64,000 nt of DNA from the IMG/VR virus record IMGVR_UViG_3300049783_001441, one strand, 5' to 3'. Under the pieces are notes generated by a model. The model was not told the DNA's origin. It saw only the letters and a program-made list of their open reading frames with translations, and did no database searches. The DNA comes from a virus (taxonomy: Duplodnaviria > Heunggongvirae > Uroviricota > Caudoviricetes). Both the position numbers and the translations under genes were made by a program. Below are positions 1-48,077 of the stretch, in pieces (within the stretch, counting starts at the first letter, position 1; every line of letters begins with the position of its first letter).

Positions 1-730
1 CGAGGTAAATACTGGTTGCTGACCATGCGGCGATGCCCGTTTGGCTCACCAGAGTCCAGTTACCCGCTTCGGCCACGGTGAAGGATCCCGCTGCGGTGTG
101 CCCTGCGGTGCTCTTCAGCAAGCGGACGCCCTCCGTCACAGGCTCGCCCGAGGCGTAGGTAGTTCCGCCAACGAACGCGGGGATCTCGTGAGTCGTTACT
201 GGGACGGAGGTAACTGCCGTCCACGAGCCGGCGCTGAAGACACCGGCGCTGGTGAAGGTTGCGCTAGCTTGGTAGACGATACCGCCCGAGTTGACCAGCT
301 CGTCCGCGAGGTAAACCGTCGTTGCGGCCCACGGTGCGATACCGGTCTGCCCGAGCAGTGTCCAGCTACCCGCTTCGGCCTCCGTGAAGGTGGCGGCTGA
401 CGTGTGGCCGGCAGTGCTGCGGAGCAAGCGGACGCCCTCGGTGGCGGTGCCGCCCGAGGCGTAGGTGGTGGCGGCGGTCCAGGCGATAACGTCGGTAGAC
501 GACGCGAGTGTGGACGCGGTTGAGGTCCACGCAGCGCCGCCATAGCGGAACGGCGCGGCGGTGCTACCCAACTGGATGTAGGTGTCTCCGGTCTGCAAAC
601 CGAGCAAAGTACCCGCCGCAATCAGGCTGGGGTCTAGGGTACCTGTGAAGGTGCGGTGTCCGTTTAGCTCAAGGGGTGCGACCCCATCACCGGAGGTTAC
701 GGTAAGGGCAGTGGCGATGGTCCGACTCAT
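1..730 (-). CDS. fibre-like virion protein, N-terminal part (C-terminus lies beyond the window start); contains tandem ~102-aa repeats
   Basis: rc ATG at 728-730 with GGAG 9 nt upstream; minus frame open to position 1 (not in the ORF track because there is no stop inside the window); a 306-nt direct repeat (56-84 vs 362-390; 1-9 vs 307-315) encodes repeated units of the type TYASG.TATEGVRLL.STAGHT.A..FT.AEAG.WTL..QTGIA.W.AT..YL. Confidence 0.55.
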   Translation of the reverse strand, partial: MSRTIATALTVTSGDGVAPLELNGHRTFTGTLDPSLIAAGTLLGLQTGDTYIQLGSTAAPFRYGGAAWTSTASTLASSTDVIAWTAATTYASGGTATEGVRLLRSTAGHTSAATFTEAEAGSWTLLGQTGIAPWAATTVYLADELVNSGGIVYQASATFTSAGVFSAGSWTAVTSVPVTTHEIPAFVGGTTYASGEPVTEGVRLLKSTAGHTAAGSFTVAEAGNWTLVSQTGIAAWSATSIYL

Positions 731-8470: not shown

Positions 8471-8631
8471 GTGTGCTCCGCGTGGGTCTGGGGTCTTGCG
8501 CCGCGCAACCCGCGCCGGCAGCGCAAAGGCGCTAGCTGGTGACGGGTAACCCGGAAAAGTAGAGGCATAAAACAGAGCCGCCCCGCCCGAGCAAACGAAC
8601 AGGGCGGCGGTCAGTCAACCAGAGGGTCGAC

Positions 8632-9630
8632 TTACTTCGTGAGCATCATCGGAGCTTGCGGGCCGAACTTGCTACGGGCACCCGGATCAGACGAGGAGAC
8701 GGTCCGGTCTGGGAAGAGTGTAACGCGGATAACGACGCCAGGCTGGACAGCGTTGGCAACGGCGGGGAGGGCGTTCGTGCCGTCATCAATCGAGTCGAAC
8801 CCGGTGACGTTGGCCAGAACCGAGCCGCTGGTTGCCTTGCGGAAGAACGGAATGCGCAGGGTCAAGTATGCGCGGGTCTCTGGGGCCTTGACACTGTCGT
8901 CATGCAGCACAACGAGTGCTCCACGGTCGAGCTTGCGGGGCTTCAGGCCGGACGGGCTCTGGAGGCTTGCACCACCGGAGGTCTTGGCAGCGGCAGCGCC
9001 ATCAGAATCGCCAGCGTGGGCGCGGAAGATTCCTGGGAAGCATGAAACCAGGGCGCAATGCGTCGGGGAGTCTGCAACCGTGCGGCCACCGATCAGGTAA
9101 TCCTGCTCAAGCGTGCCCTTTTGGATGCTGTTAACGTCGGTGAGCAAGAGCGCTCCGTCGTCGTTGGAGTAAGCATCAACGGCCATGTGCGAGGCAAGGT
9201 ACTCTGCGGTCCAGGCTTCGCCGCCGGCAGGGAGGTTGTTGCGTGAAGTAGCAACGCCGCCATGGCCGGTTTCATTGTGGATGGACCCGAAAGTCCCGCC
9301 GTAGATATTGGTCTCGTCCAAGCCGCGAGCCGGTGCAGTCACGCCGCTGGTGTAGCGGTGGTAGCGGAACAAGGGGATGGCGATGAACTTTTCGGTGGCG
9401 TCCCACGAGATCGTGCCGGCGGGGTAACCGTTAGCAGTTTCCATGGCAGCCAACACGACGGCAGACGACAAGTCGCCACGCGGAATGATGATGCTGTCGT
9501 AAATCGGGTCATCGAGGCCAACGCGAGCGATGAAATCGCTGAAAATGTCGCCCTTGTTGAACTGGCCCATCTTGCAGCCGGCTGCGGCCACCGATGCGAT
9601 AGGGGATGAGAGGCGAGTGTTGTCGTTCAT
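8632..9630 (-). CDS. virion structural protein, paralogue B (333 aa from the ATG at 9630)
   Basis: paralogue of 895-1896; start MNDNTRLSSPIASVAAAGC with GGAG RBS; the track ORF extends to 9678. Confidence 0.55.
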   Translation of the reverse strand: MNDNTRLSSPIASVAAAGCKMGQFNKGDIFSDFIARVGLDDPIYDSIIIPRGDLSSAVVLAAMETANGYPAGTISWDATEKFIAIPLFRYHRYTSGVTAPARGLDETNIYGGTFGSIHNETGHGGVATSRNNLPAGGEAWTAEYLASHMAVDAYSNDDGALLLTDVNSIQKGTLEQDYLIGGRTVADSPTHCALVSCFPGIFRAHAGDSDGAAAAKTSGGASLQSPSGLKPRKLDRGALVVLHDDSVKAPETRAYLTLRIPFFRKATSGSVLANVTGFDSIDDGTNALPAVANAVQPGVVIRVTLFPDRTVSSSDPGARSKFGPQAPMMLTK

Positions 9631-9649: not shown

Positions 9650-10114
9650 TTACGCGGGTATAATAGTGGAAATTTCAAGATGAGAGAGGTTGTCTGGGCG
9701 GGTCTGCCCTAAAATGACTTCCGCAAAGAGTACCGGCCAACGCGGCGGCTTTACGGTGAAAGACGCATGTTCACGACTTACCAACTGTGCTGGTATGACT
9801 ACGCCTAAATGGGAGTGCGTTGCGTCGGCGAAAAACCGAACGGACAGCGCTCCCGGTGCGGCCCACTGTACGTCCAGCTTAGCTGCCGGCACCAGTGAGA
9901 ACACCATGCGAAAACCCAAGCCCCAGCTAAGGGGGTCGGCCCACAACAGGCCGCAATGGTTGCGGGCTAATTCCTTAGCCCTGGCCGCCTCTGGTTGGAG
10001 CACCCCATCGGCCACCACTGTAAATATCGGCCCTGGCTTATCCAGTGTGCCCGCCGCAAACCCCGTTCCAGGGGTTGACAGCAGCAGTAGCCTATTTTTC
10101 AGCGGTTCAGCCAT
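9650..10114 (-). CDS. hypothetical protein (154 aa)
   Basis: ORF in the operon upstream of paralogue B; no motif recognised. Confidence 0.45.
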   Translation of the reverse strand: MAEPLKNRLLLLSTPGTGFAAGTLDKPGPIFTVVADGVLQPEAARAKELARNHCGLLWADPLSWGLGFRMVFSLVPAAKLDVQWAAPGALSVRFFADATHSHLGVVIPAQLVSREHASFTVKPPRWPVLFAEVILGQTRPDNLSHLEISTIIPA

Positions 10115-10159: not shown

Positions 10160-10585
10160 TTAGTAGACGCTGGTGCCGTCGTCAAGGGTAACTGCGACCG
10201 TCACTTCGTCGTCTGCGCCGTCAGCGCCTTCAGCGATGGCTCCAGCGTTGGCACGCATTTCGCGGACATACTGAACGGTGGCGGGTGCGGACATTCCGAT
10301 AGCGAAGCCGGCTCCGACTTGCGCGGACGAGTCAACGCCAGCAGCGTTGAGGCCCATTGCGATTCCGGTGCCGACGACGGCTCCGGCGATAACGTCGGTC
10401 AGGACTCGCATCTTGGAGCCTTGCTCGGGAAGCCATTCGCCAGCGAAGCGCTCGATAAGGAACGAAGCGCCAACGCCCGCGCCAACTCCAGCAGCCGCGG
10501 GAGCGGCCATCATGCTGTAATCGATGACGGTGGACAGAGCGCCACCTTGCTGGCTAAGGTCCATGTAGTAGTTATCGGTGTTCAT
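10160..10585 (-). CDS. Gly/Ala-rich small hydrophobic protein
   Basis: 141 aa with several G/A-rich hydrophobic stretches (AAPAAAGVGAGVGASFLI, VIAGAVVGTGIAMGLNAAGV). Confidence 0.45.
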   Translation of the reverse strand: MNTDNYYMDLSQQGGALSTVIDYSMMAAPAAAGVGAGVGASFLIERFAGEWLPEQGSKMRVLTDVIAGAVVGTGIAMGLNAAGVDSSAQVGAGFAIGMSAPATVQYVREMRANAGAIAEGADGADDEVTVAVTLDDGTSVY

Positions 10586-10655: not shown

Positions 10656-11486
10656 TTACTCGGCAGATTTGCCAAGCGCCTTTAAGGGTGCGGTAACTCC
10701 GGCTAGCGCGCCTTTCAGCTCACTCCCGAAGTAAAACAACACCGCAAGAAACACTACAATTAGGACCACGGCGTAGTACGCCCCGGCTGATTGTATGAAG
10801 ACTTTGAAGATGTTTTTTGACCACTCGCTGAAGCCTCCCTTGGCTTCAATCGCGGTATCTTTTAACGCGGCCAGTGCCCTAGGCACCGTAGTAATCGCCA
10901 CCTCCAGCCCACCGTTTAGGGCTCGCGAGGCAGTTTCATACCAGCCCGAATCTAGCGGCTCTAGCTCGCCGTCCATAATCTCATTCGCCAGCCTAAAGGC
11001 CACCTGGGAGCCGAGGTTGCCAGCCACTCGCGCGGCTCCTCGGATGGTATCTTCGATGTCGCCGGTGCCGTTTGCACGGGGTATCGCGGGCAGGCCAGCC
11101 AGCCCCAGAATGTGGAGTGCGCTGAACTGCTCCCAACCGTAGGTAGCTTCCAGCCGGCCCAGCTTGCGGGCGGACGCGACCTTGAACTGGTCGTTACCGG
11201 TGTCGGCGTAGCCAACGGCGTAGATATACGCGGCGCGGACGTGCGCGCCAAAGTTGGTGCGTGGACGCATCATTACGCGGGCGGTAACATTGGACGGGGT
11301 GCCGTCTGGCACCAGGCTAACGAGCGCCGCCATGCTGGGGTTAGACGAGCCGGCGAGGCGAGTGTCCGAGCAGCCACAACCACCGGAGCTAGCCGCTACA
11401 GAGGCGATGGACGAGGCGAGGTGGGAGTCTTCGCAGGCCGAGCATTTCCCCTTATTCGTATTCCCGCAACCGGATAACTCACTCAT
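10656..11486 (-). CDS. Cys-rich protein with C-terminal transmembrane anchor
   Basis: N-terminus CGNTNKGKCSACEDSH...SSIASVAASSGGCGC shares the IASVAA..GC motif with both virion-protein paralogues; C-terminal helix AYYAVVLIVVFLAVLFYFG. Confidence 0.5.
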   Translation of the reverse strand: MSELSGCGNTNKGKCSACEDSHLASSIASVAASSGGCGCSDTRLAGSSNPSMAALVSLVPDGTPSNVTARVMMRPRTNFGAHVRAAYIYAVGYADTGNDQFKVASARKLGRLEATYGWEQFSALHILGLAGLPAIPRANGTGDIEDTIRGAARVAGNLGSQVAFRLANEIMDGELEPLDSGWYETASRALNGGLEVAITTVPRALAALKDTAIEAKGGFSEWSKNIFKVFIQSAGAYYAVVLIVVFLAVLFYFGSELKGALAGVTAPLKALGKSAE

Positions 11487-11865
11487 AGGTAACCTCTGTG
11501 AGACTTGCGCCCCTGCTGCTAGTCCACTTTAACACTGCTAGTAACCCGAAGGCCACCGCAATGCAGGCCAAAGTCCACACCCACCACGGGGTAGCTTTAA
11601 CTTTTTCGATTCCGGCCTCTGCTCGGTCCAGGCTGTCCACCCAAAAACCGCCCTCTTCCGAGCTTAGCGGATCCGAGCCCCAGTCCGAGTCTGTCGAATC
11701 TGACGGCACTAGGTCCGTGCTCTCTTCGCCAGACTGCGGGCTGGGGTCGGTGTAGCCGTTAGACGGGTCGTCCAAAGCGTCCTGCTTACTAGATAGCTGG
11801 TTTTTTAGCCGGTTTGCTAACCCGGCGGCGCGACCTGCTTGGAACTCTGGGAAGGGCTTACCCAC
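11479..11865 (-). CDS. tail-anchored membrane protein (acidic N-terminal domain)
   Basis: C-terminal helix WWVWTLACIAVAFGLLAVL. Confidence 0.45.
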   Translation of the reverse strand: MGKPFPEFQAGRAAGLANRLKNQLSSKQDALDDPSNGYTDPSPQSGEESTDLVPSDSTDSDWGSDPLSSEEGGFWVDSLDRAEAGIEKVKATPWWVWTLACIAVAFGLLAVLKWTSSRGASLTEVTYE

Positions 11866-11868
11866 GAG

Positions 11869-12390
11869 TTACCTCCGCCCGACGAGAACGAGCATTAACA
11901 CCACGAACAGGGCTGCGAGCGCCGCGGCTCCCAGCCCCACCCACTTCCAAGGGCTCTCTGTCTCCACCAAGTAATTCGCGGCGTCTTTCAGGATCGCCCC
12001 GGCAGACTTTGACTCTGCCGGTGGGGGTGTGTCCACACCGGGCGCGTCGTCGGGTTGGTGCGAAGCGTATTCGCGGAGCATGGCTAGCTCCACGATCTGC
12101 CAGTCAACCATGCGAGCATGGGCGTAGCGGTCGTTCGCCGTGGCCGTTGCCGGCGGGCTAACCTTAATCAAGGTCTGCTCGATGCGGCGGTCAGCTTCGG
12201 CGATAAACGCGCGCAAGCCTTTACTGTCCACTGGCGGGCTCTGGATGGCCGTGAACCAGTTAACCCCGCTAGCTTTGAGCCAGCTTAGGCGAGCGCCTAG
12301 CTGGGTGTAGGAACCGTCCTCGTAGGGGTAGTCTACGCCTTGAACGCCGGTGGGGTTGCTCGTGTGGCTATCGGTGGCATTATGCGGCAT
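11869..12390 (-). CDS. tail-anchored membrane protein
   Basis: C-terminal helix VGLGAAALAALFVVLMLVLVG. Confidence 0.45.
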   Translation of the reverse strand: MPHNATDSHTSNPTGVQGVDYPYEDGSYTQLGARLSWLKASGVNWFTAIQSPPVDSKGLRAFIAEADRRIEQTLIKVSPPATATANDRYAHARMVDWQIVELAMLREYASHQPDDAPGVDTPPPAESKSAGAILKDAANYLVETESPWKWVGLGAAALAALFVVLMLVLVGRR

Positions 12391-13333
12391 TGGACTTGCC
12401 TCCGAGTGTCTTCGCGAGGAGCACCACGAGCACGAGTGCGGCCACGAGAATCAGAGCCCCCGCCGCGTATGCAAAGTAGTTGGGCTTGTCGTCGGTCAAC
12501 CCGAACTCGCCGCCGGCATCGAGTTCGCCGTTGTTACCGGGCTCGTCAGGGCGGTCCATTCTGCGGCCGTCTTCGCGGTCCATTTTGGTGCTGTTACCTT
12601 CGCTGCGATCTTCGAGGGTGTCAGCGCCGGGTACGCCACGGGTCTTGATGCCCTCGGGGTGCTTGATGCGCTGCATGGCCGTAGAGTTTAGCACCTGCAA
12701 CCGCGCCGCTTCACCGTGGCCCGTGGTGATCACGCCACGCGTGCGGTAGGCCGCCACTGGGATCACGCCGCCGGTTAGTCCCGGCATCGGGACATCGGCC
12801 CAACTCTCTTTGAATGGGGTCAGCATGAAGCCCGCGCCGTACTTGCGGAGTAGCTGCCCTAGCTCGCGGTAACCTGCCCGCCACGCCTCTACTTCGGGCA
12901 GCGTGCGTGCAGCGGCACGGCGAGCCCTACCGGTCAGGGGATCAGCCGGGTTGGCCGATGGCCCGCTAGGGTTGAGCAATCGGCGCACCTTTTCAGGCAT
13001 CCGGCCCGGCCTGGCAACGACGTGTTTGATTACCTGCTTCCAAGTCTGGCCCAGAAACGGCTTAATCAGAGCTTGCAGGCGGATAGAGTCGCGGCCTACT
13101 TCGGCTGTCAGGTTCGCCATGCGCAGATAATAGTACGGGCGCATACCCGTAGACAGCCACAGGTTTTTGTGCGCTTGCTTTTTGGTGAGTACCGCCCGAA
13201 CGACCTCTTGCTGTGCGGCCTTTAGGAAGGCTTCGCGGTCGCTAGTACCCCACGATGGCCACAACTGGGCCGCGTCTAGCGCTAGTGTGGGTAAGTCTCG
13301 GGAAAGCCCCGCCGAAATGTCCGTGTGGCTCAT
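12380..13333 (-). CDS. tail-anchored membrane protein (317 aa)
   Basis: C-terminal helix FAYAAGALILVAALVLVVLLA. Confidence 0.5.
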   Translation of the reverse strand: MSHTDISAGLSRDLPTLALDAAQLWPSWGTSDREAFLKAAQQEVVRAVLTKKQAHKNLWLSTGMRPYYYLRMANLTAEVGRDSIRLQALIKPFLGQTWKQVIKHVVARPGRMPEKVRRLLNPSGPSANPADPLTGRARRAAARTLPEVEAWRAGYRELGQLLRKYGAGFMLTPFKESWADVPMPGLTGGVIPVAAYRTRGVITTGHGEAARLQVLNSTAMQRIKHPEGIKTRGVPGADTLEDRSEGNSTKMDREDGRRMDRPDEPGNNGELDAGGEFGLTDDKPNYFAYAAGALILVAALVLVVLLAKTLGGKSNAA

Positions 13334-13659
13334 GGCGAACCCCTTCGCGGTAACATGGCAATGATGAGCACAACAAGTGCCAGGATAACCACCACGACAA
13401 CCGATAGGCCGGCATAGTTCGTTGGGTTTAGCTGGCTAAGGGCCAGCTCTAAGTGTTGCTCCACGCGGAGCAACATCGCATACGTTTCGGCATCGCCAGC
13501 TCGGCGGGCACGCAACTTTTGCCGCTGCACCTCGGCGAGCTTGGCCGGGATACTGGCGCTGGTCTGTAGGTACGCGGATACGCCGGGGGCTAACGCCGCC
13601 AGGGTATCCGAGTCCAAACGCCCGACAATGTCGAGCGCAGCGCCAGTAACGTCAGCCAT
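13330..13659 (-). CDS. tail-anchored membrane protein
   Basis: C-terminal helix LSVVVVVILALVVLIIAML. Confidence 0.45.
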   Translation of the reverse strand: MADVTGAALDIVGRLDSDTLAALAPGVSAYLQTSASIPAKLAEVQRQKLRARRAGDAETYAMLLRVEQHLELALSQLNPTNYAGLSVVVVVILALVVLIIAMLPRRGSP

Positions 13660-13662
13660 GGC

Positions 13663-14106
13663 CTAGCCGCGAGCCTTGCTGATGCCGAGCGCAATGAGCA
13701 CACCCAACAGCACAAACACCACGAGACCAATCACGCGCCCTGGGGTTACCAGGGGTGCGGGAGGGGTGACTAGGGGGTTGTTACTGGTGGTGTCGTCAAG
13801 TTCGTCAAACACGTCCTCGCCAGCCGAACCCTTACCTTGAGCGGCGCGGATAAGTTCAGCGGCGGTCGGTCCGAGTGCGTCCACGAGGTCCGCAGCGAGA
13901 CGAGCAGCTTCCGCTGGGCTGATGCCGGAATCACCGGAGCCGCCGCCGGAATCTGGGGTGTCGCCACCGGTCTTTCTGCCGTTTTCGAGTGGGGCCTTAC
14001 CCGCGAGGCGAGCTTCGCTAAGCTGTGGTTGGCCGCCATCTTCTTCGAGCAACAGACGTTCGTATTCGGCCTCGTCGGGCCAGTCTTCTAGGGGTGGCAT
14101 AGGCAA
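13663..14106 (-). CDS. tail-anchored membrane protein
   Basis: C-terminal helix VIGLVVFVLLGVLIALGI. Confidence 0.45.
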   Translation of the reverse strand: MPMPPLEDWPDEAEYERLLLEEDGGQPQLSEARLAGKAPLENGRKTGGDTPDSGGGSGDSGISPAEAARLAADLVDALGPTAAELIRAAQGKGSAGEDVFDELDDTTSNNPLVTPPAPLVTPGRVIGLVVFVLLGVLIALGISKARG

Positions 14107-14124
14107 CTCCTCGGGCTTTACCCG

Positions 14125-14904
14125 TTAGGTTTGAGTCATTGTAACTGGTTTCCCGCCAAAATAGGCGGCAACAGCTAGTAGTAGCATGGCGGCAACGAGA
14201 AAAAACAAGTTACCACCTTTGGGTGCCCGACCGGCTCCGGCCAGCCACCCGTGGTTTCGGGCCGACGAGGTTACCACCCGGCTGGAGGTAGACCCGAAGG
14301 GCTCCCAGTCGGCGGTAGCGTCGGCTTCGCGGAATTGAATACTGCACGACACGTTACCTCGCGCGTCGGCGGCGCACTCTGGAGGCGTGCCGATGTCCAC
14401 AAAAATGTGGGTCGGGCTACCCGGCATATTTACCCCGCTGTCCGAGGTCCAGCGCTGCCCGTTGGGGTGGAACCCTGCGAGCATGAAGCGGTACGGAAGG
14501 CCGATAGAAGCCGCCGCAGCCGCCAGGAATACCGAGAAGTCGTCACAGTCCCCAAGCTGGTGCTCTATGGTGTCTAGCGGGTGCTGGATGTACTCTCCCG
14601 CCTCCAACACGTAGTAAAGGTTCTCCACGGCCCACTGGTGGATGGCACGGGCTTGGTTCACGTAGTCTCTGGGTGCTACTCTGGCCTTGCGGAGAATGCG
14701 GGTAACCACGAACACGCGCAACTCGTTGGCCTCCGCGGCCTCGTCGGAAACTTTGCGCAGACTGCCCAGCCGCTCGGACCACGACATTCGGTCCCACGAA
14801 GAGCGGGAGACTTGCGGGCCACGAATCGTGGGTACCGAAATCTTACGGGGCTTGCGCGGGCGACCTAGGCGGGTCTCGTCCATCACGGGTAAGGGGATCA
14901 GCAT
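14125..14904 (-). CDS. transglutaminase-like cysteine protease, C-terminally membrane-anchored
   Basis: Cys box GDCDDFSVFLAAAAASIGLPYRFMLAGF (cf. G.C.DFA.....L.RA.GIPAR.V.GY), His SPTHIFVDIG, then Asp; C-terminal helix LFFLVAAMLLLAVAAYFG. Confidence 0.6.
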   Translation of the reverse strand: MLIPLPVMDETRLGRPRKPRKISVPTIRGPQVSRSSWDRMSWSERLGSLRKVSDEAAEANELRVFVVTRILRKARVAPRDYVNQARAIHQWAVENLYYVLEAGEYIQHPLDTIEHQLGDCDDFSVFLAAAAASIGLPYRFMLAGFHPNGQRWTSDSGVNMPGSPTHIFVDIGTPPECAADARGNVSCSIQFREADATADWEPFGSTSSRVVTSSARNHGWLAGAGRAPKGGNLFFLVAAMLLLAVAAYFGGKPVTMTQT

Positions 14905-14907
14905 TGG

Positions 14908-15660
14908 TTACTCCGGGGCCGCTGCGAGGCGCAACGCCGTGTAGATGGCCACGATCAAAAGCACGACCATGAGGGCGGCCTTGCCGCCTACCCTTAACCG
15001 TTTGGCGTTGGCGAGGGACAGCATCGGTCGGCCCCCGGCAGCGCTGCTGCCTTTGTCGTGCGCCAGGGAGCCCGCAGCGGCAATCGCAGCGGCCTCGGTG
15101 GCGTTGTTCACCTCTGACGACTCGCGCGCCGCCCACGCCCCTAGAAACGACGTGTAAGCCGCTGTGCGGATACGGATGTGCGCGGCATTCCAGGCGTGCC
15201 GTTCGATGCGCCGCCCGAACAGTAACGCCAGATCCAGCACGCTCATATCCGACTCGCCTGCTGTCTTGACCGTGTCAGCCCAGCGGCCCGCGTCTAGCTC
15301 TTGCTCGATGAGGGCGCGGACGTTGGTTACCGGGTCAAGCCTCGGGTCTGCCGGGTGCGCGTATGCGCGACCTTCGCGGAATACCGGACCCGGCGGGTTC
15401 AGTATGCTGCCCGCGCCGTCTGGCACCTTCAGTTGGTGCAGCCCAACACTGAACTCCCGTGTACGCCCGTCTGGCCACTTCGTGTACGCAACAGCGTCGT
15501 TACGAAGGCGGCTTTCGGCCCACGCATTCGCCGCCGCAGCTAGGGTAAGTGCCGGAGTCGTGCCGTACTGGCCGTAAACCCGGATGAGCGTGGCTAGGTT
15601 CTGCCGCTGCTCTGCATTCAGGCTGGCAGCGGGTGTGAAGGCGGCTAGGGGTAGGCTCAC
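14908..15660 (-). CDS. tail-anchored membrane protein
   Basis: probable GTG start at 15658-15660 overlapping the upstream stop (GTGA); the track ORF extends to 15846, which is an implausible 190-nt overlap; C-terminal helix ALMVVLLIVAIYTALRLA. Confidence 0.45.
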   Translation of the reverse strand: MSLPLAAFTPAASLNAEQRQNLATLIRVYGQYGTTPALTLAAAANAWAESRLRNDAVAYTKWPDGRTREFSVGLHQLKVPDGAGSILNPPGPVFREGRAYAHPADPRLDPVTNVRALIEQELDAGRWADTVKTAGESDMSVLDLALLFGRRIERHAWNAAHIRIRTAAYTSFLGAWAARESSEVNNATEAAAIAAAGSLAHDKGSSAAGGRPMLSLANAKRLRVGGKAALMVVLLIVAIYTALRLAAAPE

Positions 15661-16286
15661 TTGGACCCCCGGAACTTGGACCACGCGAACACCGCTGCGA
15701 TTGTGACCAGCAGCACCAAGCCGAACGCTACGGAGCCTTTGGCTGCGACCTTGGCTGCGTCTCGCACGGGTTGGACGTAACTCGCGGCCTTGTCGGCAAC
15801 CCCGCTGATCCACGGCACAATGCCCTCGGACTTTGAGGGGTACCACGGTACCAAAGGTCCGCTCGCAGGCTGGTACTGGAACCGGCGGTTGTTGCCGGAA
15901 GCGCGGTGACTAACGTGGACGTGCCCGCCCTTGCTCGCGTGGTACAGGATTACCTGACCTACCGGAATATCCGGGTTCAGGTACAGGTACTCCATAAGGT
16001 CGCGCGACGTGCCTTCCACCGGCTTGACATCCGCAGCTTCGCCCTTGATGTGCTGGGAGTTATTGTTGCTCCCCACGCACGCACTGTTGTTGATTACGGC
16101 AGTTCGGAAGCCGCTTATGCGCTGTAGCCCGCCGAACTGCACCCACAACGGGTCCAGCACGTTGATAGCCAGCGCCATGAGCGCCGCCCTCTGGGTGGGG
16201 CTAGGCGTGTTGGGGTTACCCGCAGCGGCGGCGCAACCACTACGGGTAAGCGCCTCTTCGGACAGATACAGGCTAAGCATGGCCAC
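15657..16286 (-). CDS. LAS-family (peptidase M15-like) zinc metallopeptidase, C-terminally membrane-anchored
   Basis: SQHIKGEAADV matches S-x-H-x-x-G-x-A-x-D; second metal motif GGHVHVSH; C-terminal helix VAFGLVLLVTIAAVFAW. Confidence 0.65.
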   Translation of the reverse strand: MAMLSLYLSEEALTRSGCAAAAGNPNTPSPTQRAALMALAINVLDPLWVQFGGLQRISGFRTAVINNSACVGSNNNSQHIKGEAADVKPVEGTSRDLMEYLYLNPDIPVGQVILYHASKGGHVHVSHRASGNNRRFQYQPASGPLVPWYPSKSEGIVPWISGVADKAASYVQPVRDAAKVAAKGSVAFGLVLLVTIAAVFAWSKFRGSK

Positions 16287-16289
16287 GGG

Positions 16290-16892
16290 TTACCTCAACT
16301 TCGCGTAGGCGCGGGGTACGGTCATTGCGAGCAAGGCAAGGCTGATACTGACCAGCGCAATCAGCAGGTACAGACCCAACATACTCACCCGGCGTTGGTT
16401 GCGCTGTCCGGCTGTAATGCGGGTCTCGCGGGCTTTCTCGACCAACAGAGCGCCTTCGCGGGTAATGTCGCCCTGGAGGATAGCGGTTGCAGCCGCCTCC
16501 TTTTCGCGAGCGCCACCACCGTTTTTGGTGCGCATCTTCTCGATAGACTGCGCCAATTCTGCGGGGGTATCGTCAGAGTACTTGGCGTACACGCGGCGGT
16601 ACCGCTTGCTGAAGCCTTGCTCTTCCAGTTGGTTACGGATCAGCACCTTGGTCGGGTCCGTGTTGGCGGCCCCGGCTCCGATAGCACTACCTACGATCGA
16701 GACAACCGCGCCCGCAGCCGCCAAGGCGACATTGATCGGGGGTAACGGCAGCATTACGCCGATCGTGGTTAGTGCTGAACCCACCGCAACCGTGCCGCCG
16801 CCTATCGCCGTCTGCGCTGCGATACCTTTCTCTACCCGCTCAACTTCCGTTGGCGTTGGCGTGTGGAGTACGGGTGGCTGGGACGGCAGCAC
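16290..16892 (-). CDS. tail-anchored membrane protein
   Basis: hydrophobic ALAAAGAVVSIVGSAIGAGAA plus C-terminal helix LGLYLLIALVSISLALLAM. Confidence 0.45.
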   Translation of the reverse strand: MLPSQPPVLHTPTPTEVERVEKGIAAQTAIGGGTVAVGSALTTIGVMLPLPPINVALAAAGAVVSIVGSAIGAGAANTDPTKVLIRNQLEEQGFSKRYRRVYAKYSDDTPAELAQSIEKMRTKNGGGAREKEAAATAILQGDITREGALLVEKARETRITAGQRNQRRVSMLGLYLLIALVSISLALLAMTVPRAYAKLR

Positions 16893-17308
16893 TACGCCAC
16901 CTCAAGCGCCGCGTCCGGCCCCGGAGCCGGGAACAGCGCGACCAGCACGACTAGCGCAATGAGGGCGAAGATAGCGGCAACTCCGCCGATCCATGCCCAC
17001 TTGTTTTCGCCACGGAAAACGTCTAGGTAACTGGGTGGGTTCAGCAGCGCGTTTTCGGCGTCTTCGTTCGCTTGTAGCGCCAACTCTAGGTCCACGGCGG
17101 CTTGATCGAGGTCGCCTTCGTCGTTGGCGCAATCGTCGAGACGCCCTTCCCACTTGGCGTACCACGCGCTTAGCTTCTTATTGCGGTACGACTTCTTACC
17201 GTCCGCTTTGGCAGCCATGTAACCATCATACAGCCGTTGGGCCTTGGCGCACGAGGTCTTTTCAGGCGTGGCCGCTAGGCGGCTCGGGCTGGGTTTAGAT
17301 GGTCGCAT
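16892..17308 (-). CDS. tail-anchored membrane protein
   Basis: C-terminal helix WIGGVAAIFALIALVVLVALF. Confidence 0.45.
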   Translation of the reverse strand: MRPSKPSPSRLAATPEKTSCAKAQRLYDGYMAAKADGKKSYRNKKLSAWYAKWEGRLDDCANDEGDLDQAAVDLELALQANEDAENALLNPPSYLDVFRGENKWAWIGGVAAIFALIALVVLVALFPAPGPDAALEVA

Positions 17309-17411: not shown

Positions 17412-18629
17412 CTAGAAGTCGAGGTCAGCGACCGTAATCTGCGAGGTCTTGGTGGTCTTGCGGGGCTTGCGGGCCTTCGGCTTGGTGGTCTTTGCCTTCG
17501 GGGCGGCCTTTGCCTTTGCCTTTGCCTTTGCCTTTGCCTTCGGGGCGGCCTTTGCCTTCGGGGCGGCCTTCGGTGCGGCCTTTGCCTTGGCGCGGGCGGC
17601 GTCACGGGCAGCGTTGAGCTTCAGCCACTTGGCGGCTACTGGCTTGATCTTCGCGGCTTCGGCAGTGCTGGGCTTGTGCAGTTGCGACTGGCTGGAGACA
17701 GCCTTGACGCGGCCTTGCAGGCTTGCAGTAGCGCGGACAGTGAGCTTGCCCTTGCTAGCGCCGCTCGTGCCGCGGCCCACGTAGAAGCCAGTTACCCAAC
17801 CGGCACCAGTCTCGTAGCGCACGGGCTGGCCTAGCGACGGGACTGCGGTGAGCGCCTTACCGGAATCGGTGGCGGCGGTCTTCTTTGCGGCGGGAGCTTT
17901 GCGCTTCGCGGTAGCTTTGCGCGTAGCCGGAGCGGCGGTCTTCTTAGCGGCAGTCTTCTTTTTGGCCGGAGCTTTGCGCTTTGCCGGAGCGGTCTTCTTT
18001 GCAGCGGTCTTCTTTGCCTTGGTATCGCGCTCGCTAGTCGAGCCCGGCCCGCTGCGTGGGCGTCCGCCTGCCGGTGCCTTGGCGGTCTTGCGCTTCGCCG
18101 CGGGAGCTTTGCTCGTCGGAACCAGCTTCATGCCGCGGATAGCGGCGAGCGAGCGCAGCTCTGCGAGGGAGAGTTCCTTGCAGTTGGCCGCGGCAGCAGC
18201 GGTAACCGGAGCACCGAGTGCGAGCGACCATGACGAACCGCTCTTGTTGGCCTTGCTGCCGGCGAACTTGTAGTTCGCGAGGCAACGGGCCTGGGTGGCT
18301 GCGCCGGTAGCCTTGACGGCGATCTCGGCGACGTTACCCTTGCGGATAGACACTTTCACCGGGATGCTGGACAGCTTGCTGCCGGCACCGAGGCGGAGCT
18401 TAGCGGTGTACCAGACGGTAGCGCGCTTGGCGTTACCCTTGGTTTCCTTGCGGCGGTTGTTGATTGCGGCCTGAATCTTGGCGGACTCGGCAGCGGCGGG
18501 TGGGTAGCGTTTAAGCAGTGCTTTGGTAGCAACGATCATGGGAGGAACCTCCGTCCAAACGGACATAGTGTGCGGGGCTCCAAACAAAGCACCCGGAGAC
18601 AGGGTAACCCCTGGTCCGGGTAACGGCAA
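17412..18629 (-). CDS. Lys/Ala/Pro-rich histone-H1-like basic DNA-binding protein
   Basis: 405 aa; long KAKAAPKAAPKAKAAPKAKAKAKAK and KKTAAKKTAPAKRKAPAKKK tracts encoded by GCCTTT-type simple repeats (about 17500-17600). Confidence 0.55.
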   Translation of the reverse strand: MPLPGPGVTLSPGALFGAPHTMSVWTEVPPMIVATKALLKRYPPAAAESAKIQAAINNRRKETKGNAKRATVWYTAKLRLGAGSKLSSIPVKVSIRKGNVAEIAVKATGAATQARCLANYKFAGSKANKSGSSWSLALGAPVTAAAAANCKELSLAELRSLAAIRGMKLVPTSKAPAAKRKTAKAPAGGRPRSGPGSTSERDTKAKKTAAKKTAPAKRKAPAKKKTAAKKTAAPATRKATAKRKAPAAKKTAATDSGKALTAVPSLGQPVRYETGAGWVTGFYVGRGTSGASKGKLTVRATASLQGRVKAVSSQSQLHKPSTAEAAKIKPVAAKWLKLNAARDAARAKAKAAPKAAPKAKAAPKAKAKAKAKAKAAPKAKTTKPKARKPRKTTKTSQITVADLDF

Positions 18630-18669
18630 CTGGCGTGCCGGGTAACTAATAGCGTCGGGCCGCTCTCAA

Positions 18670-20631
18670 TTAGCCACAGGCGCAGCCGCCCCAGTCGTGC
18701 GTAACTTCTCCGCAGTCTTGGCACTGGTCCAAGTAAGGCGCGTGGGGGTCTTCGTCCGTGGGGCCGGTAAACTCTGGCGTGCTGAACTTGTTCGCGGTGA
18801 TCCAGTTGAGCTGGTTCGTGGCGGTGTGCAGCGCGGCGGCTTCGGCGGGTAGCATTGCAGTGGGCACGTCACCTCTGAAGGTGTCCAAGTTCGCGCCAGT
18901 CTCGTTGTCCTCCTCGTCGTCATCGAGGTAGGCGTCTAGGGCGAAATCGTCTTCGTCTTCGTCTTCGTCCTCGCTCGTGCCGTCTTCGTCCGTGCCGTCT
19001 TCAATCTCGGACTCCACGTCGTCGTGCTCGATGTCGGCGGGGGTAACGGCTTCGTCACCGGCTAGCTCGGCTGCGTGGGCGCTCTGGTTCAGTGCGCGCC
19101 ACTGGACCCACATCAGGTCGTCGCCCATACTCTCGCCAGCTTCCGGGTGTACGCAGTCAAAGTCGAATAGCGCGGACAACCACTTAGCGTGGGCGTCGAG
19201 CGACCCAAGGCATTCACCGTAGCGCTCGCCACCCAGCGAAACGAAGGCTTCGTTCAGCCGGCGGATCACCTTGTCGGGGTTACCCTTTTTGTGGTCCTTA
19301 GCGACCTTGCGCACGGTCTGGCGCACAAGCTCGTCTTCATCCGTCTCGGACAGCCTACCTAGCACCGGGGCGTCTGGGAGCCCGGCGAGTAGCTCTACGG
19401 TGTAGTCGCGGAGGTCTGCGGCGTTCTGCGCGTCAGCCTCTTCGTTGTGCTCTTCTGGGGTCATATCGTCGGGGGTCGTAGCTTCGCCCTCTTCGGCGGC
19501 TTCGGCGGCTTCGGCGGCTTCGTCCGACTCCGCGTGGTACTCGGCTTGCTCGTCTTCGTGGTCGCGCGCATCGAAGTCTAGCTCTTCCGGCTCTTCCGGC
19601 TCTTCCGGCTCGTGCGCTACGTCGCGCTCGTGCATCGGGGTGTCCCCGGACAGCGCCGCTACCCGCCCCTTGGTCGGCATCGGCACGCCCGCGCCCAGTT
19701 GCGGGGTCGCTGCGGCTTCGGCTTCGCGCTTCGCTTGCAGTTCGTCCAGAATGCCGTCAACGCGGGCGTTGAGCGCGGCTTCGGTCTCCGCGGGCTCGGT
19801 CTCTGGTTCGGTCTCTGGTTCGGTCTCGGGGTCCATCATCACAACCTCACCGACTGCCGGGCGCCACGGGATCACGCCACTGAAGAACGGGTCGAGCGCC
19901 GCGCCGACGCGCGGCGTCGGGATGGCGGCGGCAAGCTCGGTCTCGGCTTCACCCATAAAGGATCGCGCAATGGTTTCGGACTCGGCAAGCTCCATCGCCA
20001 CCCCGTCGAGGTCTTCGCAGTGCTCGGTGAGCAACCACGTCGGGTCCTCTGCTCGGTACACGCGCAAGACGAGCGCCGCGAACCGGGGGTAGATGGTGTC
20101 CCAGGACTCTTCGGACTGCGCGGCTACCAGCTTTGCCAACGCCTTGAGCAGTCGCCGACTGGTTAGGGGCTTCGCTTCGGGGTCGGCGGCAGGTGTAGTC
20201 GGGTTCATGGCTTCGTCGCGGAACTCGTAGAGCCTAGCTCGCCACGTATCGCCGGGAGAGGTCGCCTCAAGGCCGGGGTACCATGCCAGCAACCGCGCCG
20301 CCTGGACCGTCTGTTGTGCCGCCTTGTCGTGGTCCATACCCGTACCGACCGCCTCTGAATACGCCGCGCTAAGTTCGCCCAGCACGATCGCAGCGGAGTC
20401 GAGGTCTTCCGGGTCATCTTCGCGGGTCTGGTGAGCTTGCTCCAGCAGGTACCGCGTGGTCTGCGTCCACCCCTTTTCATCCGTGTCGACGGCGTCTAGT
20501 GCCTCGCGGATCGCGGCTCGGGTCGCCCACACGTTGTCTTCAGTGGCTTTGTGGATCGCGGCCTTCAGGTGCTTCAGCGCGGCCTTTCGGACTTGCTTAA
20601 GTTCGGCCTTGGCGGCCTTTTTCTTGCTCAT
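18670..20631 (-). CDS. large acidic low-complexity protein with C-terminal Cys cluster
   Basis: start MSKKKAAKAELK at 20631; E/D-rich repeat blocks (ETEPETEPETEP, EPEEPEEPEE, AEAAEAAEAAE, EDEDEDEDD); C-terminus CQDCGEVTHDWGGCACG. Confidence 0.55.
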   Translation of the reverse strand: MSKKKAAKAELKQVRKAALKHLKAAIHKATEDNVWATRAAIREALDAVDTDEKGWTQTTRYLLEQAHQTREDDPEDLDSAAIVLGELSAAYSEAVGTGMDHDKAAQQTVQAARLLAWYPGLEATSPGDTWRARLYEFRDEAMNPTTPAADPEAKPLTSRRLLKALAKLVAAQSEESWDTIYPRFAALVLRVYRAEDPTWLLTEHCEDLDGVAMELAESETIARSFMGEAETELAAAIPTPRVGAALDPFFSGVIPWRPAVGEVVMMDPETEPETEPETEPAETEAALNARVDGILDELQAKREAEAAATPQLGAGVPMPTKGRVAALSGDTPMHERDVAHEPEEPEEPEELDFDARDHEDEQAEYHAESDEAAEAAEAAEEGEATTPDDMTPEEHNEEADAQNAADLRDYTVELLAGLPDAPVLGRLSETDEDELVRQTVRKVAKDHKKGNPDKVIRRLNEAFVSLGGERYGECLGSLDAHAKWLSALFDFDCVHPEAGESMGDDLMWVQWRALNQSAHAAELAGDEAVTPADIEHDDVESEIEDGTDEDGTSEDEDEDEDDFALDAYLDDDEEDNETGANLDTFRGDVPTAMLPAEAAALHTATNQLNWITANKFSTPEFTGPTDEDPHAPYLDQCQDCGEVTHDWGGCACG

Positions 20632-20689
20632 ATTGGTGTCCTCTGCGCATAAAGTCCACCGGGTGCGCGCTACACGCCGGTTCGCCGGG

Positions 20690-46161: not shown

Positions 46162-46193
46162 CCTTGAAACCAAACCCGAAACTTGGAGGTCTC

Positions 46194-48073: not shown

Positions 48074-48077
48074 GCAG

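What the first reader, a model, noticed from the sequence alone, without database searches (positions are those of the whole stretch)
10656..17308. Uninterrupted array of 11 genes whose products all end in a single C-terminal transmembrane helix
Every ORF from 10656 to 17308 (minus strand, tightly overlapping) encodes a soluble N-terminal domain followed by one hydrophobic helix within the last ~30 residues. That is a tail-anchored topology. Two carry recognisable enzymatic domains (transglutaminase-like protease, LAS/M15 peptidase). The array sits directly upstream of the virion-protein/fibre genes. In known phages this many consecutive tail-anchored proteins beside structural genes is the hallmark of internal-membrane viruses (the PRD1-like membrane protein set). 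It is not expected in a tailed-phage morphogenesis operon.
Basis: partly seen in the sequence, partly recalled or inferred. Interest (0 to 1): 0.8.

Follow-up and report, generated by a model that had tools for sequence, protein, structure and literature searches.

The report
Conserved array of tail-anchored phage proteins
Eleven back-to-back genes really do encode unrelated proteins that all end in one membrane helix plus a short basic tail. The same array, followed by a jelly-roll-like protein and a fibre, recurs in distant relatives of a ~99 kb phage-like genome with no recognisable head, portal or terminase genes, so a membrane-bearing, non-tailed particle is plausible but unproven.

Summary
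All 11 minus-strand genes from 17308 to 10656 encode a signal-peptide-free N-domain and one strongly hydrophobic C-terminal helix. About 1 of 71 other ORFs in the window has such a helix. The eleven are not paralogs.

New findings:
- Three are wall hydrolases with catalytic motifs intact: an M15 peptidase, a lysozyme-like protein (PF18013 type) and a transglutaminase-like Cys protease.
- The array belongs to a larger module: TA array, a 2-TM protein, a ~150-aa protein, a ~330-aa jelly-roll-like protein, then a fibre. This module is almost the only thing shared with three distant metagenomic relatives (50–69% GC), two of which carry 10–11 TA genes (the third is only a 2.3 kb fragment). A fourth, more distant lineage has a similar run.
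- In 40 of 41 such proteins a K/R follows the helix directly.
- The element closes into a ~98.6 kb circle. It has PolA, helicases and a separate lysis cassette, but no terminase, portal, HK97 capsid, double-jelly-roll capsid or FtsK/HerA ATPase hit.

PRD1, Bam35 and P23-77 each have only 1–2 tail-anchored-like proteins, so "hallmark" is overstated.

Best reading (~0.4): a virion-membrane and entry module of a new non-tailed lineage. Rivals are cell-side lysis or envelope remodelling, ejected proteins of a very divergent tailed phage, and a vesicle or plasmid transfer apparatus.

The parts
16892..17308 (-). TA1, 138 aa, C-terminal helix at 107-125. Weak ortholog in L020 (125 aa, E 3e-5).
16290..16892 (-). 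TA2, 200 aa. Conserved Gly/Ala-rich amphipathic segment (~55-100) plus C-terminal helix at 171-192. Orthologs in L019 (225 aa) and L020 (218 aa).
15657..16286 (-). TA3, 209 aa. LAS/M15 zinc peptidase (H79-x6-D86, H122-x-H124) plus C-terminal helix at 184-202. No ortholog in the relatives.
14908..15660 (-). TA4, 250 aa. Lysozyme-like / lytic-transglycosylase-like domain (invariant NA[YW]AES and GS[VL]GLxQ) plus C-terminal helix. Its orthologs in L019 and L020 carry Pfam Phage_lysozyme2.
14125..14904 (-). TA5, 259 aa. Transglutaminase-like Cys protease (GDC120DDF, H166 conserved) plus C-terminal helix. The most conserved protein of the module (E 1e-51 to 1e-54 against L019 and L020).
13663..14106 (-). 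TA6, 147 aa (145 by the public gene call). Acidic, probably disordered N-part, C-terminal helix.
13330..13659 (-). TA7, 109 aa, C-terminal helix. Orthologs in L019 (115 aa) and L020 (110 aa).
12380..13333 (-). TA8, 317 aa, unknown N-domain, C-terminal helix.
11869..12390 (-). TA9, 173 aa, C-terminal helix. Weak similarity to TA1 (3e-4).
11479..11865 (-). TA10, 128 aa, acidic N-part, C-terminal helix.
10656..11486 (-). TA11, 276 aa, last protein of the array. Orthologs in L019 (197 aa), L020 (204 aa) and L022 (133 aa fragment).
10160..10585 (-). w141, a Gly/Ala-rich membrane protein. The counterpart at the same position in the relatives has two strong helices, but no sequence similarity to w141 was detected. 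Weak holin/anti-holin PHROG hit (E 0.006).
9650..10114 (-). w154, a soluble ~150-aa protein present at the same position in all relatives (18-24% identity in the alignment; the relatives match each other by blastp, w154 itself does not). AlphaFold2 model is beta-rich but low confidence (pLDDT 48).
8632..9630 (-). w332, a jelly-roll-like beta-sandwich protein and the founding member of the family that led to the relatives. Paralog of w333.
8577..8608 (-). Strong terminator-like hairpin (13-bp stem with 10 G-C pairs, then a T-run) directly after w332.
7325..8470 (-). w381, a fibre-like protein. The N-terminal ~150 aa are conserved in the relatives' fibres and in the giant p2862; the C-terminal part is variable.
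895..1896 (-). w333, paralog of w332 (49% identity). It sits directly before the giant fibre-like gene.
2..730 (-). Start of p2862 (2862 aa, continues beyond the window). Its N-terminal ~85 aa are homologous to those of w381 (E 1e-6). Weak TSP3_bac and CBM_5_12 hits.
17412..23400 (-). Upstream genes of the same minus-strand run: MoxR-type AAA_5 ATPase (22363-23400); w558, acidic with a C-terminal VWA-like DISGS motif (20690-22366); w689, acidic (18670-20739); w405, SAP-like motif plus Lys/Ala-rich repeats (17412-18629). Whether they belong to the module is not known.
46164..49908 (+). Separate canonical lysis cassette: 2-TM holin candidate (46164-46655), muramidase PF11860 (46692-47480), 1-TM protein (47600-48073) and patatin-like phospholipase (48961-49908).

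Best explanation
The 11 genes are the membrane-protein part of a conserved module. In order, the module is: the tail-anchored array, a 2-TM protein, a ~150-aa protein, a ~330-aa jelly-roll-like protein, and a fibre. It belongs to a previously undescribed lineage of phage-like elements that lack every tailed-phage hallmark gene.

Shown: eleven unrelated N-domains share only a C-terminal helix with a short basic tail. This acts as a common address that would bring them all to one lipid bilayer.

Inferred: that bilayer is a virion-associated membrane taken from the host cytoplasmic membrane.
- Three of the proteins (M15 peptidase, lysozyme-like, transglutaminase-like protease) would be membrane-tethered wall-cutting enzymes. 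With no signal peptide they stay harmless in the producing cell, and they reach peptidoglycan only when the viral membrane meets the next host, as proposed for PRD1 P7.
- The other eight would link the membrane to the shell or vertices, or to the DNA through their basic tails, or help membrane remodelling or fusion. TA2's glycine-rich amphipathic segment is a candidate for the latter.
- The jelly-roll-like protein and the fibre would form the vertex or receptor-binding part.
For: - All 11 have a C-terminal anchor and no signal peptide.
- They are not paralogs, so the common tail is a shared constraint and not the result of duplication.
- Two relatives with 69% and 50% GC (L019; L020+L021) share the same gene order and 10-11 tail-anchored genes; a 2.3 kb fragment at 57% GC (L022) holds only the end of the module. 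TA1, TA2, TA4, TA5, TA7, TA11, w332 and w381 match their counterparts by blastp, and all these counterparts keep the anchor although the helix sequence itself is not conserved.
- Apart from one small protein, this module is the only thing the genomes share, which is typical of a morphogenetic core.
- A more distant lineage (L023) again has a transglutaminase-like anchored protein heading a run of about 8 anchored proteins.
- Catalytic motifs of all three hydrolases are intact.
- A separate holin-muramidase-patatin lysis cassette exists at 46-50 kb, so the anchored hydrolases are not needed for ordinary lysis. The L020/L021 relative likewise has its own holin plus CHAP endolysin.
- The complete ~98.6 kb circular map has no terminase, portal or HK97 capsid hit in Pfam or PHROGs. 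Its only P-loop NTPases are AAA_5, a Sak4-like protein and helicases.
- The AlphaFold2 model of the w332 family is a beta-sandwich whose best, though weak, structural neighbours are jelly-roll capsid proteins, including P23-77 VP16 and the HCIV-1 capsid protein. No HK97 fold appears among them.
- A strong terminator follows w332, which fits an abundant product.
- PRD1 P7/P14 and Bam35 gp26 are precedents for hydrolases held by a C-terminal helix in a viral membrane.
Against: - No double-jelly-roll or paired single-jelly-roll capsid protein is identified with confidence. The best VIA Z-score is 4.8, the model's pLDDT is 53, and lectins and CBMs score equally.
- No FtsK/HerA-type packaging ATPase was found.
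- A ~98.6 kb genome has no precedent among the membrane-containing phages compared here (15-17 kb) or, to my knowledge, any other.
- The w332 and w333 paralogs each precede a fibre gene with a shared N-terminus. This fits an adaptor or vertex protein as well as it fits a capsid protein, and tailed phages also have such adaptor-fibre cassettes.
- In 40 of 41 anchored proteins the tail after the helix is basic. By the positive-inside rule this predicts C-in/N-out, which is the opposite of classical tail-anchor insertion from the cytoplasm.
- Known membrane phages have only 1-2 such proteins each.
- There is no particle, lipid or expression evidence of any kind.
Confidence: 0.4

Rival explanations
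1. The module acts on the cell side. The proteins insert into the infected cell's own cytoplasmic membrane and never enter a particle. They act in egress or envelope remodelling, as holin-endolysin-like fusions, spanin-like connectors, superinfection exclusion factors or cell-wall remodelling factors.
For: [quoted passage not shown]
- The next gene, w141, has a weak holin/anti-holin PHROG hit.
- Three of the 11 are wall hydrolases.
- The basic C-tails fit a C-in/N-out orientation that would place the hydrolase domains at the wall.
Against: - A complete separate lysis cassette exists in the window, and one also exists in the L020/L021 relative.
- Eight of the 11 have no enzymatic domain.
- The array is invariably linked to the jelly-roll-like protein and the fibre, and this block is almost the only one conserved between genomes. 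That is not the usual behaviour of lysis or exclusion genes, which are typically highly variable (from general knowledge).
- N-domains of up to 290 aa without a signal peptide are hard to export.
Confidence: 0.22
2. The element is a very divergent tailed, or otherwise proteinaceous, phage. The 11 proteins are ejected or internal virion proteins. After ejection, the hydrolase domains open the wall. The C-terminal helices insert from outside into the host membrane, with the basic tails pulled in by the membrane potential, and together they build the DNA conduit.
For: - The helix-plus-basic-tail design in 40 of 41 proteins predicts N-out/C-in, which is exactly what insertion from outside would give.
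- Wall hydrolases are tethered next to a fibre gene.
- Duplicated adaptor-plus-fibre cassettes with a shared fibre N-terminus are typical of tailed phages.
- The PolA is distantly related to actinobacteriophage PolA.
Against: - No terminase, portal, HK97 capsid, tape-measure or tail-tube hit was found in the complete genome with Pfam or PHROGs.
- Carrying eleven strongly hydrophobic helices in a lipid-free particle would need chaperoning.
- No such set is known in any tailed phage.
Confidence: 0.2
3. The element has no capsid. It is a large plasmid-like element that spreads in self-encoded membrane vesicles or through a novel contact-dependent apparatus. The anchored proteins, the fibre and the giant adhesin-like protein decorate the vesicle or mating junction. 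The SAP and Lys/Ala-rich protein condenses the DNA.
For: - No capsid or packaging gene is recognisable (calls as above).
- The map is circular and carries a short tyrosine recombinase.
- A Lys/Ala-rich SAP-like protein, a MoxR-VWA pair and acidic proteins lie just upstream of the array.
- A self-vesiculating plasmid, pR1SE, is known from an Antarctic haloarchaeon (PMC10818511).
- The present element is known only from ice metagenomes.
Against: - No relaxase, VirB4, VirD4, FtsK-like translocase, Rep or Par genes were found.
- The element has a holin-muramidase lysis cassette and phage-type replication genes: PolA, DUF3987 primase-helicase, a Sak4-like ATPase and a PD-(D/E)xK nuclease.
- A jelly-roll-like protein is conserved next to the array.
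Confidence: 0.13

Closest known systems
PRD1 P7/P14 (Tectiviridae) and Bam35 gp26: viral-membrane-associated peptidoglycan hydrolases
   Same: An N-terminal wall-hydrolase domain followed by one helix near the C-terminus, with no signal peptide. They are encoded in the late operon among other membrane-protein genes and near the spike and vertex genes.
   Different: - Each of those phages has one such protein, not three hydrolases among eleven anchored proteins.
- There is no detectable sequence similarity.
- Those phages are ~15 kb, linear, protein-primed, and have a double-jelly-roll capsid protein and an FtsK/HerA-type ATPase. None of these features is found here.
P23-77 / HCIV-1 type membrane-containing viruses with vertical single-jelly-roll capsid proteins
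   Same: Two tail-anchored-like small proteins (ORF18, VP19) lie directly beside the capsid genes in P23-77. The w332 model's weak best matches include VP16, VP17 and the HCIV-1 capsid protein. The present genome has two paralogs of the jelly-roll-like protein.
   Different: The Z-scores (3.7-4.8) lie in the range of generic beta-sandwiches. The relatives show only one copy. No packaging ATPase was found. The genome is about six times larger.
Endolysins with a C-terminal transmembrane domain in tailed phages (BSPM4 M4Lys, Enc34, AP1 LysAP)
   Same: The same domain plan as TA3, TA4 and TA5: a catalytic N-domain and a single C-terminal helix (PMC7143992, PMC8943055, PMC8879335).
   Different: Those are single genes inside the lysis cassette. 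Here there are three of them among eight non-enzymatic anchored proteins, away from the lysis cassette and linked to a fibre gene.
Bacterial tail-anchored membrane proteins (e.g. TssL; Tat-dependent tail-anchored proteins)
   Same: A single C-terminal helix and no Sec signal peptide (PMC3426401, PMC10924467).
   Different: Those are scattered single genes, and the Tat-dependent ones have an N-terminal twin-arginine signal. Here 10-11 lie in one operon, and almost all have a basic residue directly after the helix.
Plasmid vesicles of pR1SE (Halorubrum lacusprofundi)
   Same: A mobile element from a polar habitat that encodes membrane proteins for its own vesicle-borne spread, without a recognisable capsid (PMC10818511).
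   Different: That element is archaeal and has no shared genes with this one. The present element has bacterial-type ribosome-binding sites, peptidoglycan hydrolases and a lysis cassette.

Membership tests
Tail-anchored membrane proteins (topological class) | A single hydrophobic transmembrane segment within about the last 30-50 residues | tested here: met
   All 11: KD 19-mer mean 2.2-3.5, ending 4-19 aa from the C-terminus. The Hessa-type sum is negative only there.
Tail-anchored membrane proteins (topological class) | No N-terminal signal peptide or other transmembrane segment | tested here: met
   No hydrophobic N-terminal segment in any of them. The only borderline internal segment is in TA2 (55-73, +1.7). 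Hydropathy only; no SignalP or DeepTMHMM was available.
Tail-anchored membrane proteins (topological class) | Post-translational insertion with the N-domain in the cytoplasm | not testable with these tools
   The basic C-tails in 40 of 41 proteins in fact argue for the opposite orientation by the positive-inside rule.
Internal-membrane icosahedral phages (PRD1-like / Tectiviridae and allies) | Double-jelly-roll (or paired vertical single-jelly-roll) major capsid protein | tested here: inconclusive
   No Pfam or PHROG capsid hit. The w332-family model (pLDDT 53, pTM 0.61) is jelly-roll-like, but the best Z is 4.8 and lectins and CBMs score the same.
Internal-membrane icosahedral phages (PRD1-like / Tectiviridae and allies) | FtsK/HerA-type packaging ATPase | tested here: not met
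   Walker-A scan of the whole 98.6 kb map plus Pfam and PHROGs: only AAA_5 (MoxR type), a Sak4-like ATPase, SNF2, RecD and ResIII helicases. Sequence-level test only.
Internal-membrane icosahedral phages (PRD1-like / Tectiviridae and allies) | For Tectiviridae: linear ~15 kb genome with inverted terminal repeats and a protein-primed family B polymerase | tested here: not met
   Circular map of ~98.6 kb with a split family A polymerase. No terminal repeats on the relatives' contigs, but these may be incomplete.
Internal-membrane icosahedral phages (PRD1-like / Tectiviridae and allies) | A cluster of small membrane-protein genes in the structural operon, including a membrane-bound wall hydrolase | tested here: met
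   The array with three anchored hydrolases lies next to the fibre gene. For comparison, see PRD1, Bam35 and P23-77.
Internal-membrane icosahedral phages (PRD1-like / Tectiviridae and allies) | Lipid in the virion | not testable with these tools
   The element is known only from metagenomes.
Tailed phages (Caudoviricetes) | Large terminase, portal and HK97-fold capsid protein | tested here: not met
   No hit at E <= 0.01-0.1 for any ORF of the complete map in Pfam or PHROGs (precomputed Pfam). Very divergent versions cannot be excluded: the single-sequence models of w332 and p369 failed.
Endolysins with a C-terminal transmembrane domain | Catalytic N-domain plus a single C-terminal transmembrane helix | tested here: met
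   TA3 (M15: H79x6D86, H122xH124), TA4 (conserved E49-S50 and GLxQ) and TA5 (C120, H166).
Endolysins with a C-terminal transmembrane domain | Position and role in the lysis cassette | tested here: not met
   The lysis cassette (2-TM protein, muramidase, 1-TM protein, patatin) lies about 30 kb away on the other strand. The role itself is not testable.
Sortase / exosortase / rhombosortase C-terminal sorting signals | N-terminal signal peptide and a conserved motif (LPXTG, PEP, GlyGly and the like) just before the helix and basic tail | tested here: not met
   No signal peptides. The 12 residues before the helix share no motif across the 41 proteins.
Conjugative type IV secretion / actinomycete TraB systems | VirB4/VirD4 or FtsK-like translocase, and a relaxase | tested here: not met
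   None found in Pfam, PHROGs or the Walker-A scan of the whole map.

The most novel reading that the evidence does not exclude
The window belongs to a new lineage of non-tailed bacterial viruses, or capsid-less infectious vesicles. Genomes reach ~100 kb. The particle carries a lipid membrane populated through a dedicated tail-anchor address (helix plus basic tail) by 10-11 different proteins, including three tethered wall hydrolases. A jelly-roll-like protein and exchangeable fibres form the receptor-binding vertices. This would be by far the largest membrane-containing phage type, and the first viral membrane proteome built almost wholly from tail-anchored proteins.
Probability: 0.3. Interest if true: 0.9.

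Novelty: new variant of a known kind. Interest (0 to 1): 0.72.

Why it matters
Membrane-containing phages are few, small and poorly sampled. How viral proteins are sorted into a viral rather than a cellular membrane is largely unknown.

This finding offers a conserved, easily recognised signature: a transglutaminase-like anchored protein heading a run of proteins that each end in a helix and a basic tail, followed by a jelly-roll-like protein and a fibre. The signature can be searched for in metagenomes. It defines a lineage that automated pipelines miss, because the lineage has no terminase, portal or known capsid gene.

If the particles do carry lipid, the lineage would extend the size range of such viruses about fivefold. 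It would also provide a simple, testable sorting code, and three tethered wall hydrolases whose latency and activation could be studied. If the particles carry no lipid, the set is an unprecedented battery of membrane-inserting ejection or envelope-remodelling proteins.

Either way, the ~98.6 kb genome with no recognisable morphogenesis genes is itself a target for structure-based annotation.

Tried and rejected
- **DNA similarity.** blastn of 10001-18000 against the phage and plasmid collections gave no match.
- **Protein similarity to known records.** tblastn of TA5 and P0007 against phages gave no match. The TA5 ortholog against plasmids gave only a generic transglutaminase protein.
- **No whole genome** is held for the window. 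Family search on a locus handle was not possible.
- **Word-based protein searches** with TA5 and p369 found only the proteins themselves.
- **Collection scans.** IMG/VR scans with TA5, PolA, p369, A3 and A5 gave no relatives. The A3 scans of the genome and metagenome collections gave none. The A5 scans returned only generic transglutaminase-core proteins without arrays, apart from a 1.1 kb fragment of the L020 lineage (L039).
- **ESM Atlas** for w332 and p369: the models have pLDDT 0.25 and 0.31, so the neighbours are meaningless.
- **PDB sequence and profile searches** for TA3, TA4, TA5, A3, A4, A8 and A10 gave nothing, or only weak hits consistent with the muramidase and transglutaminase-like assignments.
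- **Fold searches.** Foldseek with the w332 model against PDB and BFVD gave no significant match. The w154 AlphaFold2 model was too poor to search (pLDDT 48).
- **Complex prediction** of the w332 family with the fibre N-terminus gave no verdict.
- **Sequencing runs.** No RNA holder is listed. Laying contigs of four ice-metagenome runs showed the same near-clonal sequence with only 2 SNPs, so no dN/dS test was possible.
- **PRD1 P7 against TA4** by BLASTP: no similarity.
- **Paralogy among the 11**: rejected, with only TA1-TA9 at 3e-4.
- **Sortase-type or Tat-type sorting signals**: rejected, because there are no N-terminal signals and no motif before the helix.
- **A haloarchaeal host**, suggested by the very acidic proteins, was rejected. 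The pI values are mixed, and the element has Shine-Dalgarno sites and peptidoglycan hydrolases.
- **p336 as a packaging ATPase** was considered and rejected. It has an N-terminal Walker A, but from its sequence pattern and its PD-(D/E)xK nuclease neighbour it looks like a Sak4/AAA_24-type recombination ATPase (inference).

Full report
**1. The observation**

The eleven minus-strand ORFs between 17308 and 10656 are real, tightly packed genes. Junctions are overlaps of 1-11 nt or gaps of 3-18 nt. GGAG/GAGG sites lie upstream of most starts. The public gene caller finds the same genes on independent contigs.

Each product has one strongly hydrophobic 19-mer that ends 4-19 residues from its C-terminus (Kyte-Doolittle 2.2-3.5). 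A crude Hessa-type insertion energy is negative there (-0.6 to -5.8) and nowhere else. None has an N-terminal hydrophobic segment. TA2 has an extra borderline Gly/Ala-rich segment.

Only one of about 71 other ORFs in the window (40668-40967) has a comparable C-terminal helix, so a run of eleven is not chance. Peptidase_M15_3 in TA3 and Transglut_core in TA5 are confirmed. No dedicated topology predictor was available.

**2. What the eleven proteins are**

They are not paralogs. An all-against-all BLASTP gives only one weak pair, TA1-TA9 at 3e-4. The shared tail is therefore a convergent or selected feature on eleven different N-domains.

Three are wall hydrolases:
- TA3 has the LAS zinc ligands H79-x6-D86 and H122-x-H124. 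It resembles phage M15 endolysins at 35-38% identity.
- TA4 was unassigned by Pfam. It is orthologous to anchored proteins in the relatives that carry Pfam Phage_lysozyme2, and it keeps the invariant NA[YW]AES and GS[VL]GLxQ motifs. Its best PDB profile hit is a muramidase, but weak (E 0.29).
- TA5 keeps GDC120DDF and H166. Its profile hits a solved transglutaminase-like putative cysteine protease at E 0.005.

The other eight have no recognisable domain.

**3. The genome around the array**

Walking along public contigs from ice metagenomes closes the map into a circle of about 98.6 kb. The database lists a 98,770-base contig for the same proteins.

The genome encodes:
- a split family A DNA polymerase, a tyrosine recombinase and methyltransferases;
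- RecD-like, ResIII and DUF3987 helicases or primases;
- a PD-(D/E)xK nuclease next to a Sak4-like ATPase;
- a 2112-aa SNF2-helicase polyvalent protein;
- a 2862-aa protein with weak TSP3 and CBM hits;
- a MoxR-type AAA_5 ATPase next to an acidic protein with a VWA-like DISGS motif;
- a SAP-like protein rich in Lys/Ala repeats;
- an SPFH lipoprotein.

A canonical lysis cassette (2-TM protein, PF11860 muramidase, 1-TM protein, patatin-like phospholipase) lies at 46-50 kb on the other strand.

No ORF in the whole map hits a terminase, portal, HK97 capsid, tail, double-jelly-roll capsid or FtsK/HerA ATPase family in Pfam or PHROGs. A Walker-A scan finds only the ATPases listed above. The element looks like a phage in its replication genes, lysis cassette and fibre-like proteins (w381, w621). 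It is not recognisable as a tailed one.

**4. Relatives**

The 332-aa protein just downstream of the array (w332) has a paralog, w333, with 49% identity. Each of the two is followed by a fibre-like gene, and the first ~85 residues of those two fibre genes are homologous (w381 against p2862, E 1e-6).

A profile of the two paralogs, searched against 1.84 billion representative proteins, found only three true relatives. Their contigs, at 69%, 50% and 57% GC, show the same module:
- a transglutaminase-like anchored protein;
- six or seven more anchored proteins;
- a 2-TM protein;
- a ~147-aa protein;
- the w332 homolog;
- a fibre whose N-terminus matches that of w381.

Beside this, transcribed divergently, are anchored orthologs of TA1, TA2 and TA4. 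In total L019 has 8+3 anchored genes and L020 has 7+3. The third contig (L022, 2.3 kb) holds only the end of the module: a TA11-like anchored fragment, the 2-TM protein, the ~140-aa protein and the w332 homolog.

BLASTP supports homology for TA1, TA2, TA4, TA5, TA7, TA11, w332 and w381. For w141 and w154 the relatives match each other, but the link to the window rests on position and a weak alignment (18-24% identity). In every matched protein the anchor is kept while its sequence drifts. Outside the module, the genomes share only one small protein.

A profile of TA5 led to a more distant lineage (L023, 65% GC). There a 320-aa transglutaminase-like anchored protein again heads a run of about eight proteins with C-terminal helices.

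A 1.1 kb fragment of the L020 lineage is binned in a Candidatus Saccharibacteria MAG. This is weak evidence for a host.

**5. A sorting-signal-like design**

Across 41 anchored proteins from these lineages, 40 have K/R directly after the uncharged helix. The C-tail is short (mean 6.8 aa) with a net charge of +2.1. The N-flank has a net charge of +0.5 and no shared motif.

This is not a sortase- or exosortase-type signal, because there is no signal peptide and no motif. By the positive-inside rule, the design predicts C-in/N-out. That orientation is awkward for proteins made in the cytoplasm without a signal peptide. It fits two other scenarios:
- insertion from outside into an energised host membrane;
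- basic tails facing the DNA in a membrane-bounded lumen that becomes continuous with the host cytoplasm at entry.

This point is unresolved.

**6. Fold of the conserved downstream protein**

AlphaFold2 on the five-member w332 alignment gave a beta-rich model with pLDDT 53 and pTM 0.61. Foldseek found nothing significant, and its weak hits are jelly-roll proteins.

VIA-align against 48,161 chains gave a best Z of 4.8, for a geminivirus coat protein and P23-77 VP16. The HCIV-1 capsid protein scored 4.1 and VP17 scored 3.7, among lectins, CBMs and Tc-toxin beta-sandwiches. By the tool's own calibration this shows no more than a jelly-roll-like sandwich. No HK97-like match appeared.

A strong terminator hairpin follows w332. 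The pairing of w332 and w333 with fibre genes fits a vertex or adaptor role (as in PRD1 P31-P5 or the adenovirus penton base and fibre; from general knowledge) at least as well as a major capsid role.

**7. Testing the "hallmark" claim**

The same hydropathy test was applied to three known membrane phages:
- PRD1 has one protein with an N-domain and a C-terminal helix (P7/P14).
- Bam35 has one, plus gp26 with a helix 54 residues from the end.
- P23-77 has two, directly after its capsid genes.

Their other membrane proteins are tiny, with N-terminal or central helices. A cluster of membrane-protein genes beside structural genes, including a tethered hydrolase, is indeed typical of such viruses. 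An all-tail-anchored array is not. Single C-terminally anchored endolysins also exist in tailed phages.

**8. Conclusion**

It is a conserved, multi-lineage module and the signature of an undescribed group of phage-like elements.

The most likely function, at about 0.4, is a virion-membrane and entry module with tethered wall hydrolases. The rivals are a cell-side lysis or remodelling set (0.22), ejected membrane-inserting proteins of a very divergent tailed phage (0.20), and a vesicle or plasmid transfer apparatus (0.13).

Shown:
- the topology class, by hydropathy;
- the enzymatic motifs;
- the lack of paralogy;
- the synteny and orthology across lineages;
- the absence of recognisable tailed-phage genes;
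- the separate lysis cassette.

Inferred:
- the membrane targeting;
- the location in a particle;
- the role at entry;
- the role of w332.

Noticed in passing
whole element (window plus L008, L015, L011, L005): The window is part of a circular map of about 98.6 kb, known only from ice metagenomes. No terminase, portal or capsid gene is recognisable in Pfam or PHROGs.
   Followed up: yes
window 895-1896 and 8632-9630; 2-730 and 7325-8470: There are two cassettes, each a jelly-roll-like paralog (49% identity) followed by a fibre-like gene. The two fibre genes share their N-terminal ~85 aa. One fibre is 381 aa; the other is a 2862-aa giant with weak TSP3 and CBM hits.
   Followed up: partly
window 20690-23400: A MoxR-type AAA_5 ATPase lies next to a 558-aa protein. 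That protein has a ~250-aa Asp/Glu/Gly low-complexity stretch and a C-terminal VWA-like DISGS motif, which suggests a MoxR-VWA chaperone pair in the same operon as the array.
   Followed up: partly
window 17412-18629: A 405-aa protein with a SAP-like motif (LSLAELRSLAAIRGMKL) and long Lys/Ala-rich histone-H1-like repeats lies directly upstream of the array. Several off-window proteins (p421, p331, p336, p216, p369) also carry Lys/Ala-rich ends.
   Followed up: no
window 28011-34104: Several consecutive minus-strand genes end in similar acidic peptides (EDTDHE, TEDTP, PEDATP) that overlap the next start codon. These look like a reused translational-coupling junction.
   Followed up: no
window 46164-49908; L020 9196-10086: A patatin-like phospholipase sits in the window's lysis cassette. 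In the 50%-GC relative it sits directly after the fibre gene.
   Followed up: no
window 40668-40967: A lone 99-aa protein with a C-terminal helix and an RR-type tail, outside the array. It follows a 267-aa basic protein of unknown function.
   Followed up: no
window 31562-32359: An SPFH/Band 7 lipoprotein (Pfam 2e-27, PHROG 'lipoprotein' 6e-48) with a lipobox-like N-terminus, inside the long minus-strand gene run.
   Followed up: no
window 2210-5058: The family A DNA polymerase is split into separate exonuclease (486 aa) and polymerase (463 aa) genes that overlap by 4 nt. Its most similar phage sequences (~27% identity) are actinobacteriophage PolA.
   Followed up: partly
L039 (1.1 kb contig of a Candidatus Saccharibacteria MAG): Three consecutive anchored genes, apparently orthologous to those of L020 (their C-terminal tails nearly match; 51% vs 50% GC), are binned in a Saccharibacteria MAG. 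This may hint at a host, or it may be a binning artefact (coverage 1.7).
   Followed up: partly
beyond the window (L011 10713-17051): A 2112-aa polyvalent protein with an SNF2-type helicase core (phrog_62, 1e-34). It is preceded by 696-aa and 369-aa proteins with no relatives other than themselves.
   Followed up: partly
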